In this document: positions 29,632-41,708 of the stretch, in pieces
How the letters are laid out: each line of letters starts with the position of its first letter
How positions within the stretch are numbered: position 1 is the first letter of the stretch
Translations under genes and position numbers: made by a program
From: Eledone cirrhosa
Taxonomy: Eukaryota
Assembly: GCA_964016885.1 (NCBI GenBank)
Contig: CAXHJY010000353.1
Span: 62,001 to 126,000, forward strand
Direction of reading: 5' to 3'
Length of the DNA: 64,000 nucleotides
Notes under the pieces: generated by a model
Told to the model about the DNA's origin: nothing
Databases searched by the model: none
Seen by the model: only the letters and a program-made list of their open reading frames with translations

Positions 29632-30237
29632 TAATTATCTTATGTTGTTTATTATATAACTATTAAGCTCTGTAACCTACATAGAGCACTCTGTTTTCCT
29701 GGACCTTTCCGACGGAATTTCTTCATTCATATATATATATATATATATATAACAAAGAAAGTGTGGTAAGGAACCAGGTAAGCCATAACGCACCAGTGTA
29801 CTCGATACTTAAGGTAGTAGAGTGGGTAAGAGGAAAAGAGTCAGGACCCCGTCGGCTGACTCTTTACATATACATATATATATATATATATATATATATA
29901 TATATATATATATATATAAGTATGTATATACATACTACTGTATGTCTGTATACATATATGTATGTACGTATACATACTTATATTTAAGTATCAGCCGTAC
30001 TAAGAGTGAGAAATGAAATTTCATTTTTTCCATATATATATATATATATATATATATATATATATATATATATATATATATATATATATATATATATATA
30101 TATATATGTAAAGTTTCTATTTAAATTGTTGGGATACAACAAGCAAATATTTTTATAACTGATATAAAGCACTCAACAAATAATTGGAGTAAAAATACGA
30201 TATTAACAAATGGAAACTATATTTATAAAACCATATT

Positions 30238-30302
30238 TATTTCATTATACATATTTCAAGGACACCAAGTTAAATTATGGTGTGCTTTCATCAGATAAAA
30301 TA
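30238..30302 (-). ncRNA. Type-I hammerhead ribozyme in a ~270-bp (TA)n-flanked element (30108-30381)
   Basis: Minus strand: TATTTTAT-CTGATGA-AAGCACACCA..TGGTGTCCTT-GAAA-TATGTA-TA-ATGAAATA. Confidence 0.8.
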
Positions 30303-31764
30303 TAATATAGAGCAGTTTTATAAATAAATATTGACATACCCTTAAAGAATGCAACCATTTCTGTTGGAAGCTCCCGGATAGTATATATATATATATTATA
30401 AGAAGTCTGGACTCCGACGGCTGAGCTCTTGCCGATTCATTGTTGAAATGGCAAGAGCTCAGCCGTCGGGTTCCACACTCTTTATAGTATAACCATACTC
30501 TACTACCCCATGCATCGAGTACTCTGTTGAGTAATGGCCTAACCCGTTTCAATCTGAATCCCTCCTGATATATACATATATATATATATATAGCGAAGGA
30601 AAAGTGGTAAGGAACCAGGTGGGCCATAACGCACCAAAGTACTCAATACTTAGGGTAGTAGAGTGGGTAATAGGAGTAAGTAAGACCCCGACGGCTGAGC
30701 TCAAGCCGTTTCGACGGCTAATTCTGTACTGAGTACAGAATTGAGCTCAGCCGGGGTCTTACTTACTCCTATATATATATATATATATATAGAGAGAGAG
30801 AGAGAGAGAGAGAGAGAGAGAGAGAGAGAGAGAGAGAGAGAGAGAGAGAGAGAGAGAGAGAGAGAGAGAGAGAGAGAGAGAGAGAGAGAGAGAGAGAGAG
30901 AGAGAGAGAGAGAGAATAATTTGAAACTCAACGCAAATAAAACCTGTCGAAACAGTAAAATATCGTCAATGACGATGTTGGATATATATATATATATATA
31001 TATGTTATAAGGGTATATATGTAAAAAGTAAACAGAAACAACAAAGCAAACAACGCGGTACAGAGAAGAAATATATTAGTTTAACGCTTGATATAGTAGC
31101 AAGATAGAATGAGCAATAAAAGACGAACTAGAAAGACATAGAGAGATAGGGAGAAGAGGAAGGAGAAGGAATGGTAATATATGTATATATACATTTCAAA
31201 ACTAGTATTTGTTACTTTGGGATTTTCATTCTTTACTGAGATGTTAATAATCCTTCAAGAGAACATCTATTTATCTAAATCCACTTCACCAAAAGTCCAC
31301 CAGTAGCAAAGAAGAGAAAGACACACTAAAAAACAACAACAACAACATAAAAATCAACAACAAAAAAAACCCACAACAACAACAGCAAAAAAACAACAAA
31401 GAAAAATGCACCATTGATCACATTAGACCATTATCCATAATCTGGAATGAGAAAGTCATCATAATTCTAATACTCAGATTGCCTGCACGTCCGGGTTAAG
31501 TCGAACAATATTTCATTCACTTCTTTACTATCTCTGATTCGAGAAGAAGCTTTTTTTCCTTTTTAGTACGTTGTGTAGAATTCCTTTCGCTTTGGTTGCT
31601 GAACTTTTGCCTTGGTTAGCTTCGGATGAATGCACACGTAATCTCTCATGTGTGTATTATCAGATTATCCTCAAGTAGAGGAACTTTTTGTTTTCTAAAT
31701 CGGTTTTTATGCTGGTTTTCATTGTTGTTTTGTTGTTGTTGTTGTTATTGTTATTATTTTTGTA

Positions 31765-32183
31765 GATTGGTAGTATCGGTAGAGTGTCGGACAACATGAT
31801 TGATGACGTAGAGTTACGGCCCTTTATGATCTGAGTTCAAATCCCGCTGAGGTTACCTTTGCCTTTCATCCTTACGGGGTCGATAAAAGAAAGTACCAGC
31901 AAGGCACTGGGGTCGATTTAATCGACTTTCCCCTCCCCTAAAATTGCTGGCCTTGTGCCTATATAAGAAACCATTCTTCTTTTTATTATTATTATTGTTG
32001 AGTAAAGTACCAGTAATGCACTGGGGTAATTGCTGGCCTTGTGCCTAAAGTAGAGACAATTATTATTATTGTTGAGTAAAGTACCAGTAATACACTGGAT
32101 ATTTGCTGGCCTTGTGCCTAAAGTAGAGACCATTTTTATTATTGTTGAGGACTGAGTTCAAATCCCGCCGAGGTTAGCTTTGC
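31765..32183 (+). mobile_element. SINE family A (long subfamily) followed by two tandem re-copies of the 3' end and a B-box fragment
   Basis: TTGAGTAAAGTACCAGTAAT...GGCCTTGTGCCTAAAGTAGAGAC occurs twice after the full copy. Confidence 0.85.
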
Positions 32184-32662
32184 CAAAAGATGTCAACGAG
32201 AATAGAAAAGGAAAGAGATAAGAGAAAGGATAACAAAAGAGAATAGATGAAAGAGAAAGGAAAGAAAAAGGAAAGAAAAAGGAAAGAAAGAAAAAGGAAA
32301 GAGGAAAGAAAAAGAAAGGAAAGAAAAGGGAAAAAGGAAAAGGAAAGAAAGAAAAAGGAAAGAAAGAGAAAGGAAAGAAAAATGAAAGAAAGAAAGGAAA
32401 GAAAAAGGAAAGAAAAAGGAAAGAAAGAGGAAAGAAAGATAACGGGAATAGAAGAAAGAGAAATGAAGTAGAAAGGAAAGGAAAGAAAAAAGAAAGGAAA
32501 TAGAAAGGAAATAGAAAGGAAAGAGAAAGGAAAGAGAAATGAAAGGAAAGAGAAAGGAAAGAGAAAGGAAAGAGAAAAGAAAGAGAAAGGAAAGAGAAAG
32601 GAAGACATGAAAAAGAAGTAATAAAATACGACTTAAATGAATAAAAATATCTAAACAGGAAA

Positions 32663-32855
32663 AATTATTGTTTCTACTTTTGGCACAAGGCCAGCAAATA
32701 CTCCAGTACATTACTGGTACTTTATTTTATCGACCCCGTAAGGATGAAAGGCAAAGTTAACCTTGGCGGGATTTTAATTCAGAATTGTAAGGGCCATAAC
32801 TCTATGTGTCAAAGCATGGCGTCCGACCCTCTACCGATACTGCCAACCCACCGCC
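32663..32855 (-). mobile_element. SINE family A
   Basis: Full-length homology to family A. Confidence 0.9.
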
Positions 32856-32919
32856 TAAACATAGAAAAATAATAAAAATGAAAAAAATAATTTCGAAAGG
32901 GAGGCAGAAAAAAAATAGT

Positions 32920-39357: not shown

Positions 39358-40682
39358 ATATATATATATATATATATATATATATATATATATATAATGT
39401 TATTTGCGCGGATGTTTCGTAGGAAAAATATTTGGATTCAGATTACCTCTGGATCACAATGAGATTTTTTAATCTCTGCCCCTCACTTTTTCACTCTCTG
39501 CCTGTGTCTGGATGTCTGTTTCGCCTCCCTACCTCAATCACTCAATGTCTCTTTTCGTTCGTTCTGTCTACATTCTTCACCCAACTATCGGACTTTCTCC
39601 TGGATTATTTATAACGTCTCTTCTCTGAGCGAGGAAATATTATTCCTTATATCTGATAATTCCATTTCTCTGTCATTAAGCCAATGACTAACACTTGACG
39701 GCCATCACTCCACCTCTCGATAACATGTTTTACTCTCAGATTATATATTGCGTATATATATATATATATATATATATATATATATATACATACATACATA
39801 TATATATATACATACAATCTCACACACACACACACACACTCACTCACACACATATGTGTATATATATATATATATATATACTCATATATACAAACACACA
39901 CACACACATACATACATACACACACATACATACACACATACATATATACACACACATACATACATACACATCCATTTATATATATACATATACACATATT
40001 CACACACATATACAAACACACACACATATTATATATATATATAAACAGGAACACACACTCACTCGCGTGCGCGCATACATACACACACACACACACACAC
40101 ACACACACACACACACACACACACACACACACACACACACACACACACACACACATGTATATACACGCAATCATATGAAAGGAGGCACGGACATATCAAT
40201 GTAGATAAATAGAATAAATTATATCGCAGAATTTCCCCGAAATATCCTGATGGATCAATGGACGGCGGAGAAGAATTTTAAGGCTATGATTTATAATGCT
40301 TGGATCAACCGTAAATAATGAATGATTCGAGATTTCAGTTCGATCTAGATTAATCTTGCTTTAACTTTAGTTCCTTCCTTAAACCATTTACGATGATTTA
40401 ATTTACTGAATATTCAGGAATCAATAAAACGGAAGAGAGCCACCAATACATACATAAACACTCACTCTGAATCTCTCTTGCCTTCTCTCACTCTCTCACA
40501 AACACACTCACTCGCAACCACGAAAGCACCCCCCCCCCCACATTTATATAGATATGTACACACATATGTACGCATATATTAATACATATATATATATATA
40601 TATATATATATATATATATATATATATATATATATATATACAATATATTAATAAATGGAAACTATATTTATAAAACCATATT

Positions 40683-40748
40683 TATTTTATTACATATATT
40701 TCAAGGGTAACCAAGGCAAATTATGGTGCGCTTTCATCAGATAAAATA
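40683..40748 (-). ncRNA. Type-I hammerhead ribozyme (left arm of palindrome 40640-40978)
   Basis: Minus strand: TATTTTAT-CTGATGA-AAGCGCACCA..TGGTTACCCTT-GAAA-TATATG-TA-ATAAAATA. Confidence 0.8.
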
Positions 40749-40869
40749 CAGATTTGTTTTATAAATAAATAATGATATACCCGGTAAAAAGACAACCTTA
40801 ACGGTTGAAGCTTCCTGGATAGCTTCAACCGTTAAGGGTATGTCATTATTTATTTATAAAACAAATCTG

Positions 40870-40935
40870 TATTTTATCTGATGAAAGCGCACCATAATTT
40901 GCCTTGGTTGCCCTTGAAATATATGTAATAAAATA
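40870..40935 (+). ncRNA. Type-I hammerhead ribozyme (right arm of palindrome)
   Basis: TATTTTAT-CTGATGA-AAGCGCACCA..TGGTTGCCCTT-GAAA-TATATG-TA-ATAAAATA. Confidence 0.82.
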
Positions 40936-41245
40936 AATATGGTTTTATAAATATAGTTTCCATTTATTAATATATTGTGTATTTACTCCATTAACTTGTT
41001 GAGTGCTTTATATCAGTTATAAACATGTTTAAGCTTGTTGAATCCCAACAAATTAAATATAACCTCTGCATATATATATATATATATATATATATATATA
41101 TAAGTAGAAGCGGGTATTTAATTTGTTGGAAATCCGACAAATATAAATATAAATGTTTATAACTGATTTAGAGCACTGCACATGTTCCTGGAGTAAATAT
41201 TCAATGATATTAAATAAATGGAAACTATATTTATAAAACCATATT

Positions 41246-41308
41246 TATTTTATTATATATATTTCAAGGGTACCAAAAGACTTTGGTACGCTTTCTTCAG
41301 ATAAAATA
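41246..41308 (-). ncRNA. Type-I hammerhead ribozyme, diverged copy of the same family
   Basis: Minus strand: TATTTTAT-CTGAAGA-AAGCGTACCAAA(GTCT)TTTGGTACCCTT-GAAA-TATATA-TA-ATAAAATA. Stem II changes keep pairing. Confidence 0.82.
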
Positions 41309-41708
41309 CAAAATTTGTTTTATAAATAGAGACATACCCAGGAAAATCATACCTTATCAGTTGGATATTCTCTGGATAGTGGAAATGTATTAGGAATTTT
41401 TCAAACTTATGGGGGAATATGCCAATGAATATGTAAATAATTGAAAAACACCCGTTTATTTAAACGACTATTGAGAGAAAGAAGATAGAAGAGAAGAAGG
41501 ACAAAATAGTGTGTGTGAGAGAGAGAGAGAAGAAGGAAAAAACCGAAGATGAATAAAAACTCATATAATGTTAATTTGAGGGAAATATATTCGGACAATA
41601 TATATCTTAATATTATGTGTATTTATATTAATTGTTTAAAATTTGTTTATAATATAATATTTTTCATTCGTTTAAAAGTAGATAAATAAATAAATAAATA
41701 AATAAATT

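What the first reader, a model, noticed from the sequence alone, without database searches (positions are those of the whole stretch)
30108..41380. A ~270-nt single-HHR family with four local copies and structure-preserving stem II variation (retrozyme-like)
Seen: copies at 30108-30381(-), 40640-40821(-), 40821-41070(+) and 41103-41380(-). The three minus copies lose homology near the same CTATCC(A/G)G point. Stem II varies as ACACCA/TGGTGT, GCACCA/TGGTTGC and GTACCAAA/TTTGGTAC while staying paired, and the core varies only at the free position (CUGAUGA/CUGAAGA). Established: metazoan non-LTR retrozymes are short monomers with one type-I HHR and form circular RNAs. Inference: selection on ribozyme function in a small non-autonomous element.
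Basis: partly seen in the sequence, partly recalled or inferred. Interest (0 to 1): 0.72.

Follow-up and report, generated by a model that had tools for sequence, protein, structure and literature searches.

The report
Penelope retrotransposon ends carrying hammerhead ribozymes
These four repeats with a predicted self-cutting RNA motif are end pieces of a long, protein-coding jumping gene (a Penelope-like retrotransposon) that is very common in this genome, likely left behind when copying of its RNA stops early, so they are an ordinary kind of element and not a new family of small circular RNAs.

Summary
The four type-I hammerhead motifs are real, and a 19-nt core occurs 18,706 times in the 3.0-Gb genome (control 0). 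They are not retrozyme monomers. Each is the terminal repeat (pLTR), with or without a ~90-nt tail, of a ~3.9-kb (TA)n-targeting Penelope-like element whose ~740-aa RT/GIY-YIG ORF carries Hydra-clade hallmarks. The four copies are three insertions from three subfamilies, each with ORF-linked relatives. B and C are two arms of one inverted insertion, and D runs ~570 nt further upstream than stated. No hammerhead lay in a tandem array in 216 loci. It is likely a pLTR transcription start. Inverted insertions always pair one pLTR end with one tail end (47 of 47 rows). ORF-linked upstream repeats never stop at that A (0 of 14), hinting at a second, read-through or circular template. No RNA data were available. 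The scan's index showed no related earlier finding. Verdict: new member of a known kind.

The parts
30108..30382 (-). Insertion 1 (copy A, A-type subfamily): complete short unit from the sharp 5' boundary A (30382) through the hammerhead to the tail end, flanked by (TA)n on both sides
   Evidence: relatives 98-100% identical include copies that run on into the ORF (L197, L213) or upstream through the 3' UTR to an ORF end (L210)
30237..30302 (-). Type-I hammerhead in A (core C3 at 30294, predicted cleavage after 30246); helix I extends further through an internal loop
   Evidence: cleavage untested
40640..40822 (-). Insertion 2, inverted arm (copy B): begins at CTATCC, ends at the pLTR end, no tail; hammerhead core at 40740 with a C-A mismatch in stem II
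40821..41069 (+). Insertion 2, direct arm (copy C): 5'-truncated pLTR (to 40978; lacks about 15 nt present in B) plus tail (40979-41069); hammerhead core at 40878, predicted cleavage after 40927
40979..41069 (+). Tail: in ORF-bearing copies the same sequence lies between the upstream pLTR and the start codon, so it is the start of the element body
41070..41102 (.). (TA)n tract shared as target by insertions 2 and 3 (tail-to-tail)
41103..41947 (-). Insertion 3, direct arm (copy D, D-type subfamily): tail, hammerhead (core 41300, predicted cleavage after 41254), boundary A at 41380 passed, and about 570 nt of 3' UTR
   Evidence: 11 of the 19 other loci fetched with its upstream part carry ORF pieces 39-56% identical to the L073 protein
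41987..42185 (+). Insertion 3, inverted arm: mirror of 41703-41912 (86-92% identical), without a recognisable pLTR or tail end

Best explanation
The repeats are the hammerhead-bearing terminal repeat, with or without a ~90-nt tail, of a protein-coding Penelope-like retrotransposon that sits in (TA)n tracts, and the short copies are likely by-products of that element's own reverse transcription. Shown: a ~3.9-kb unit of tail, ~740-aa RT plus GIY-YIG ORF, ~1.5-kb AT-rich 3' UTR and pLTR, in partial tandem and inverted arrangements; two fixed 3' ends (about +97 and +188 from the ribozyme core); one sharp 5' stop at an A 80-89 nt upstream of the core. Inferred, by analogy with the anole element: the endonuclease nicks (TA)n DNA, the RT starts at one of two internal sites at the pLTR-body junction, and it copies towards the RNA 5' end. 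On a transcript that starts at a promoter inside the pLTR it would run off at that A and give the ~180-nt or ~270-nt unit. The two target strands would be primed at different sites, giving head-to-head insertions with one pLTR end and one tail end. Longer and ORF-bearing copies need a template that continues past the A: a read-through tandem transcript or a ribozyme-processed full-length circle. With its 2-bp stem III and near-palindromic loop the ribozyme would likely cut efficiently only as a dimer. Odds: pLTR of an autonomous PLE about 0.95; Hydra clade about 0.85; 5' stop is a transcription start about 0.6; short copies mainly by-products rather than a separate lineage about 0.8.
For: ORF link: L031 has RT motifs, linker, GIY-YIG, 3' UTR and the hammerhead in sense, with an inverted 5' arm. 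L073 has pLTR-tail-ATG-ORF-UTR-pLTR. All 40 matches returned span the tail-ORF junction. 150 of 150 scored endonuclease-domain matches are 76-100% identical. 31 database homologs are 31-42% identical and share RWK/RWR, DKT, CxCX5C, CxxC and CxH, the Hydra features of PMC8557442. Ends in 100 unselected hits: 62 pLTR end, 27 tail end, 1 ORF, 10 other; rows with an inverted partner pair pLTR with tail 47 times and like with like 0 times. 5' ends: of 64 copies reaching the zone, 37 stop within -12..+4 of the A (8.7 times background) and 27 pass it. Genome-wide, 386 stop and 711 continue at the A; at a control site 19 nt upstream 1 stops and 216 continue. Short, long and ORF-linked repeats are intermixed in a tree, and the one short-only clade proved to have long and ORF-associated members. 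Literature: the tail lies between two internal RT starts (PMC11167929); an internal promoter lies in the Penelope pLTR with a splice donor 46 nt downstream (PMC2377424), and here a donor-like GGTATGT lies about 40 nt after the A in A-, B/C- and D-types.
Against: No RNA evidence for a start site, splicing or cleavage. The tail (~90 nt) and the unit (~3.9 kb) are longer than described (30-40 nt; under about 3 kb for Hydra). If the A were the start of the main transcript, ORF-linked upstream repeats should stop there, yet 0 of 14 do, so a second template must be assumed. The short label is more clustered on the tree than shuffles (22 changes against a mean of 31.7), partly a reference artefact, so some re-mobilisation of short copies is not excluded. 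Pfam and PDB sequence searches did not recognise the ORF. No fully intact ORF copy was shown; L073 has a linker deletion and RT motif substitutions. The candidate splice acceptor before the ORF reads TTTTG in several copies.
Confidence: 0.8

Rival explanations
1. The short unit is partly a self-propagating non-autonomous element: solo copies that begin at the start site keep the internal promoter, are transcribed and are mobilised in trans by the PLE protein, like a SINE derived from a pLTR.
For: Both ends are sharp. Many A-type copies are 98-100% identical, and about 15 of 25 fetched begin at the boundary (chosen as best hits to a full unit). Short copies far outnumber ORF copies (1 of 100 hits runs into the ORF). 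The short label is clustered on the tree.
Against: The nearest relatives of window copies A, B and D include long copies at 96-99% identity. Every subfamily examined has long or ORF-linked members. Only 12 of 100 hits are complete boundary-to-tail units. In the anole element RT binding needs sequence downstream of the start sites (PMC11167929), which solo copies may lack.
Confidence: 0.15
2. One reading: a non-LTR retrozyme, a ~270-nt monomer cut out by its hammerhead, circularised and reinserted.
For: Type-I hammerhead with short stem III and compensatory stem II changes; size and low G+C within the retrozyme range (PMC7229834); retrozymes are reported to derive from pLTRs (10.64898/2026.07.22.740005).
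Against: 0 hammerheads in tandem arrays in 216 loci. Among the first 100 genomic hits 12 close pairs are inverted and 2 are direct, and both direct pairs are different subfamilies separated by (TA)n. Ends lie about 47 and 138 nt past the cleavage site; the few ends near it have other sequence directly after them, in at least one case an inserted repeat. A lone copy has one cleavage site and cannot release a monomer.
Confidence: 0.03
3. Same PLE origin, but the sharp 5' stop is an RT pause or fold-back site (a hairpin lies 15-30 nt downstream) or an RNA processing site, not a transcription start.
For: Stops are raised over a zone (-12..-5 six times background; -4..+4 thirteen times). Many junctions there are near-perfect palindromes, as in the self-priming proposed for rotifer PLEs (PMC3846280).
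Against: A sequence-based pause should also act in ORF-linked upstream repeats, where 0 of 14 stop (Fisher p 4e-5). Many stops join (TA)n directly with no inversion. The stop falls at an A after pyrimidines in all subfamilies examined although the neighbouring sequence has diverged.
Confidence: 0.3

Closest known systems
Hydra-clade Penelope-like elements (Craig et al. 2021, PMC8557442; e.g. Hydra-1_Obim, Hydra-1_Crog, Penelope-n_HM)
   Same: Single ORF with C-terminal GIY-YIG endonuclease; RWK-like, DKT, CxCX5C linker, CxxC and CxH motifs; hammerhead near the 3' end in sense; (TA)n targets; inverted 5'-truncated copies.
   Different: About 3.9 kb with a ~1.5-kb 3' UTR (listed families 1.1-3.0 kb). 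The hammerhead has a 2-bp stem III, an A-U pair at 10.1-11.1 and a long interrupted stem II, unlike the Hydra motifs in File S2 (mostly 3-4-bp stem III). Tail about 90 nt. Very high copy number (18,706 core matches).
Poseidon element PAc of Anolis carolinensis (Frangieh et al. 2024, PMC11167929)
   Same: Two fixed genomic 3' ends separated by a tail at the pLTR-body junction; AT-rich targets; hammerhead in the pLTR.
   Different: Different clade; in PAc the tail and cleavage site lie inside the ORF, here both lie upstream of the ATG; PAc was tested in vitro, this family was not.
Penelope of Drosophila virilis (PMC2377424, PMC4209133)
   Same: Partial tandem with variably truncated upstream copy, inverted terminal arms, tail, hammerhead with small palindromic helix III, donor-like site 40-46 nt after the (here putative) start.
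   Different: Promoter and intron are shown there and only inferred here; no acceptor lies before helix I here; tail 34-37 nt there.
Metazoan non-LTR retrozymes (PMC7229834; 10.64898/2026.07.22.740005)
   Same: Type-I hammerhead, short low-G+C unit, relation to pLTRs.
   Different: Those are head-to-tail tandem repeats with at least two hammerheads that give circular RNAs; here copies are dispersed, single or inverted, and continuous with a coding element.

Membership tests
Non-LTR retrozyme | Type-I hammerhead in the unit | tested here: met
   Descriptor and constrained fold in all four copies; Rfam models did not score it
Non-LTR retrozyme | Head-to-tail tandem repeats of 150-450 bp with at least two consecutive hammerheads | tested here: not met
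   0 arrays in 216 loci; the 2 close direct pairs in 100 hits are mixed subfamilies split by (TA)n. A genome-wide tandem scan was not possible.
Non-LTR retrozyme | Non-coding unit independent of an ORF-bearing body | tested here: not met
   A-, B/C- and D-types continue into UTR and ORF; E-type has long copies and ORF pieces in adjoining inverted arms
Non-LTR retrozyme | Monomer bounded by ribozyme cleavage sites | tested here: not met
   89 of 100 hits end at about +97 or +188; cleavage is at about +50
Non-LTR retrozyme | Expressed as small circular and linear RNAs; self-cleavage | not testable with these tools
   No RNA holder listed
Penelope-like element (EN+) | One ORF with PLE-type RT and C-terminal GIY-YIG endonuclease | tested here: met
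   743-aa open frame in L073; motifs conserved with homologs and read against PMC8557442; Pfam gave no significant hit
Penelope-like element (EN+) | [quoted passage not shown] | tested here: met
   L073; upstream copies reach 8 to about 1,400 nt before the core in 23 ORF-linked loci
Penelope-like element (EN+) | Inverted 5'-truncated copy at the 5' end | tested here: met
   B/C and D in the window; L006, L031; 57 of 100 hits have an inverted piece at the junction
Penelope-like element (EN+) | Optional tail at one end, derived from the start of the body | tested here: met
   Tail equals the sequence between pLTR and ATG; about 90 nt, longer than the 30-40 nt described
Penelope-like element (EN+) | Internal promoter and 5' UTR intron in the pLTR | tested here: inconclusive
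   Sharp 5' stop and donor-like site; donor absent in some subfamilies, acceptor variable; no RNA
Hydra clade | RWK and DKT motifs in the N-terminal region | tested here: met
   RWR in this family, RWK or RWR in 8 of 9 aligned homologs; DKT in 10 of 10 rows
Hydra clade | CxCX5C linker, CxxC and CxH near the C-terminus, no CCHH | tested here: met
   CxCX5C in L031, L076, L077; CxxC and CxH; no cysteine pair inside GIY-YIG (read by eye)
Hydra clade | Insertion into (TA)n and a hammerhead near the 3' end | tested here: met
Hydra clade | Generally short (under 3 kb) | tested here: not met
   Unit about 3.86 kb in L073 because of a long 3' UTR; a tendency in the paper, not a diagnostic
Hydra clade | Placement in an RT tree with named Hydra families | not tested
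   Named reference proteins were not available as tool sequences

The most novel reading that the evidence does not exclude
This very abundant family preserves a genomic record of two RNA templates. A linear transcript starting at one A in the pLTR yields the short units, while a hammerhead-cut, circularised full-length RNA that has lost that start yields the partial tandems. That would explain how Penelope elements regenerate their pseudo-LTR and what their ribozyme is for. The strict one-pLTR-end/one-tail-end rule would show that the two target strands are primed at two different RNA sites.
Probability: 0.25. Interest if true: 0.65.

Novelty: new member of a known kind. Interest (0 to 1): 0.3.

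Why it matters
As a classification it is ordinary: dispersed single and opposite-strand hammerheads have already been attributed to truncated PLEs (PMC4209133). It is a caution that short hammerhead repeats can look like retrozyme monomers until they are walked upstream. Its value is as a data set. With more than 18,000 ribozyme copies in several subfamilies, the end statistics (two 3' ends, strict asymmetry, a sharp 5' stop absent from ORF-linked repeats) give testable predictions on open PLE questions: how pLTRs are regenerated (no obvious mechanism according to PMC2377424) and whether the ribozyme has a role (dispensable in vitro according to PMC11167929).

Tried and rejected
Rfam: only microsatellite-driven miRNA-type hits among the 150 of 406 shown for the window, and no hammerhead among 30 hits over 40600-41400. 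The repeat finder was swamped by simple repeats. Free folds of the four motifs do not form stem III; z-scores -2.0, -0.2, -1.1, -3.0. Pfam and PDB sequence searches of ORF pieces found nothing significant. No ORF remnant of this element lies in the window. My first reading that the ORF is antisense to the ribozyme was wrong: that hit was an inverted arm. An intron that would splice the ribozyme out is only a hint, since the acceptor varies. The 5'-end tables were discarded because references held inverted arms; one search is the corrected one, with 7 of 100 rows of a subfamily lacking a matching reference left out of the hazard counts., 38 figures (45 of 70) are superseded. An 11-row short-only clade was a reference artefact. 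Alignment A2 had one misplaced row and was not used for counts. Sequencing runs: no RNA holder listed; no reads were laid, so expression stays open. The scan's index returned one unrelated finding. No structure prediction was run.
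Full report
Observation. The four copies are present and related (74-98%). Each folds under constraint into a type-I hammerhead: CUGANGA core, an interrupted stem II opening with A-U, GAAA, a 2-bp stem III with a 4-nt AU loop, and an AU-rich helix I that continues through an internal loop into a further 12-bp helix. Free folds do not form stem III, and Rfam did not score the motif. A 19-nt core pattern has 18,706 exact matches in the 3.0-Gb genome and the reversed control 0. 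Three details of the finding are wrong. B and C are head-to-head arms of one insertion. B's stem II has a C-A mismatch. D continues about 570 nt beyond CTATCC and has its own inverted arm.

What the unit belongs to. Of the 30 best genomic matches to C, several continue upstream into a shared AT-rich sequence over 1 kb long. Walking one (L031) reached RT motifs, a cysteine linker and a GIY-YIG domain, then about 1.45 kb of UTR and the hammerhead in sense, all between (TA)n tracts and with an inverted arm at the 5' end. The endonuclease part gave 150 of 150 scored matches at 76-100% identity. L073 holds the whole plan: truncated pLTR, tail, about 50 nt, ATG, a 743-aa open frame, UTR, pLTR. All 40 matches returned span the tail-ORF junction. 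The protein has 31 homologs at 31-42% identity. The alignment shows RWR/RWK, DKT, CxCX5C, CxxC and CxH, which PMC8557442 gives as Hydra-clade features together with (TA)n targeting and a 3' hammerhead (passages; supplement search and part 2 of 59). No tree with named Hydra families was built, and Pfam and PDB did not recognise the protein.

Subfamilies. A, B/C and D fall in different parts of a pLTR tree of 95 rows in which short, long and ORF-linked repeats intermix (window copy C and copies with under about 58 nt upstream were left out). Of 25 A-type loci, two run into an ORF about 62% identical to the L073 protein and one runs upstream to an ORF end. Of the 19 D-type loci other than the window's own, 11 carry ORF pieces. 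A fourth type first seemed short-only, but most of 24 further loci share hundreds of bases upstream, up to 1.5 kb, and two carry long ORF pieces in adjoining inverted arms. The stem II variation thus marks subfamilies. Two positions show double-sided changes (G-C/A-U and C-G/U-A, 110 of 123 rows parsed). These are about two historical events, not many, and they speak for selection in master elements, not for non-autonomy. Between subfamilies most of the 3' UTR does not align while the pLTR stays 71-80% identical.

End statistics. I took the first 100 listed core matches, unselected for length. 3' ends: 62 at the pLTR end (about +97 from core C3), 27 at the tail end (about +188), 1 into the ORF, 10 other; cleavage would be at about +50. 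Rows with an inverted partner and both ends classed pair a pLTR end with a tail end 47 times and like with like never; that is about 36-38 insertions, since 9 pairs are counted from both arms and two pairs of loci look like duplications. 5' ends run from 9 to over 1,250 nt before the core. With corrected references and 7 rows left out, 37 of 64 copies reaching the zone stop within -12..+4 of the A of ACTATCC (8.7 times background, p about 1e-22) and 27 pass it; 12 of 100 are complete boundary-to-tail units. Genome-wide for the B/C type, 386 motif copies have non-C bases before the A and 711 continue with CC; at a control site 19 nt upstream the counts are 1 and 216. Upstream repeats joined to an ORF do not stop there: 0 of 14 (p 4e-5 against the sample; 23 of 30 loci had a usable core). 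TRF found no hammerhead in a tandem array in 216 loci. Among the 100 hits 12 close pairs are inverted and 2 direct, the latter of mixed subfamilies split by (TA)n.

Mechanism. In the anole element the RT starts at two internal sites at the pLTR-ORF junction, the tail is the stretch between them, and ribozyme mutants do not block insertion in vitro (PMC11167929, parts 1-2 of 4). In D. virilis the transcript starts inside the upstream pLTR, with a donor 46 nt downstream (PMC2377424, passages). Applied here as inference: RT starting at +97 or +188 on a transcript that begins at the A runs off after about 180 or 270 nt, giving a unit defined at both ends without a separate small element. Priming of the two target strands at different sites would give the asymmetric inverted insertions. 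ORF-bearing partial tandems need a template that passes the A: read-through RNA or, as proposed in PMC4209133 (parts 1-2 of 4), a ribozyme-cut circle. My data do not separate these two. Self-priming at palindromes (PMC3846280, passages) is an alternative source of the inversions and of the 5' stop.

Comparison. Non-LTR retrozymes are tandem repeats with at least two hammerheads that give circles (PMC7229834, passages; 10.64898/2026.07.22.740005, parts 1 and 3 of 5; its supplements are closed and may list monomer data that bear on this). The tandem, boundary and independence features were tested and not met. PLE features were met. Single and opposite-strand hammerheads from truncated PLEs are already described. 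In five literature searches and the passages read I saw no account of a nucleotide-sharp 5' stop or of strict end asymmetry counted in this way. Most subscription papers, including the original PLE surveys, were not searchable, and 'tail at only one end' is known. No RNA holder was listed, so transcription, cleavage and circles are untested. The host organism was not determined.

Verdict. Observation partly confirmed; retrozyme reading not supported, ribozyme conservation and a defined 5' point supported. New member of a known kind (likely Hydra-clade PLE), interest 0.3. The two-template reading has probability about 0.25 and would deserve about 0.65.

Noticed in passing
window about 29745-29865, 30400-30545, 30590-30770 and 42400-42600: A second short repeat family with a long G+C-rich hairpin and a conserved ~70-nt flank, also set in (TA)n and often next to the PLE copies in other loci; type unknown.
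   Followed up: no
window 58971-62476 (+): Two overlapping open frames of 598 and 582 aa with a non-LTR-type RT and a C-terminal endonuclease-like region, separated by one frameshift; the clade guess (R4/Dong-like) is recalled, not tested.
   Followed up: no
window about 43120-43200; inside L007, L102, L128: A ~170-nt SINE-like repeat that has inserted into several PLE copies at AT-rich sites, in L128 right at the hammerhead's stem III-stem I region.
   Followed up: no
window 28939 (+): One loose hammerhead-descriptor hit unrelated to this family, with a 53-nt stem II region; may be chance.
   Followed up: no
window 50510-51022 (+) and 6701-7273 (-): Short frames resembling fragments of other non-LTR retrotransposon RTs (resemblance recalled).
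   Followed up: no
L046, L056, L057, L124, L172: A further divergent subfamily (core often CUGACGA, different upstream sequence, shorter tail at about +145-150) with no ORF link examined.
   Followed up: partly
L073 3373-3484: The leader between the pLTR end and the ATG folds into a long multi-stem structure with the tail end in an unpaired loop, a candidate RT-binding or start structure.
   Followed up: partly
L165/L166 and L067/L157: Pairs of loci that share insertion junctions and flanks, probably segmental duplications rather than independent insertions.
   Followed up: no
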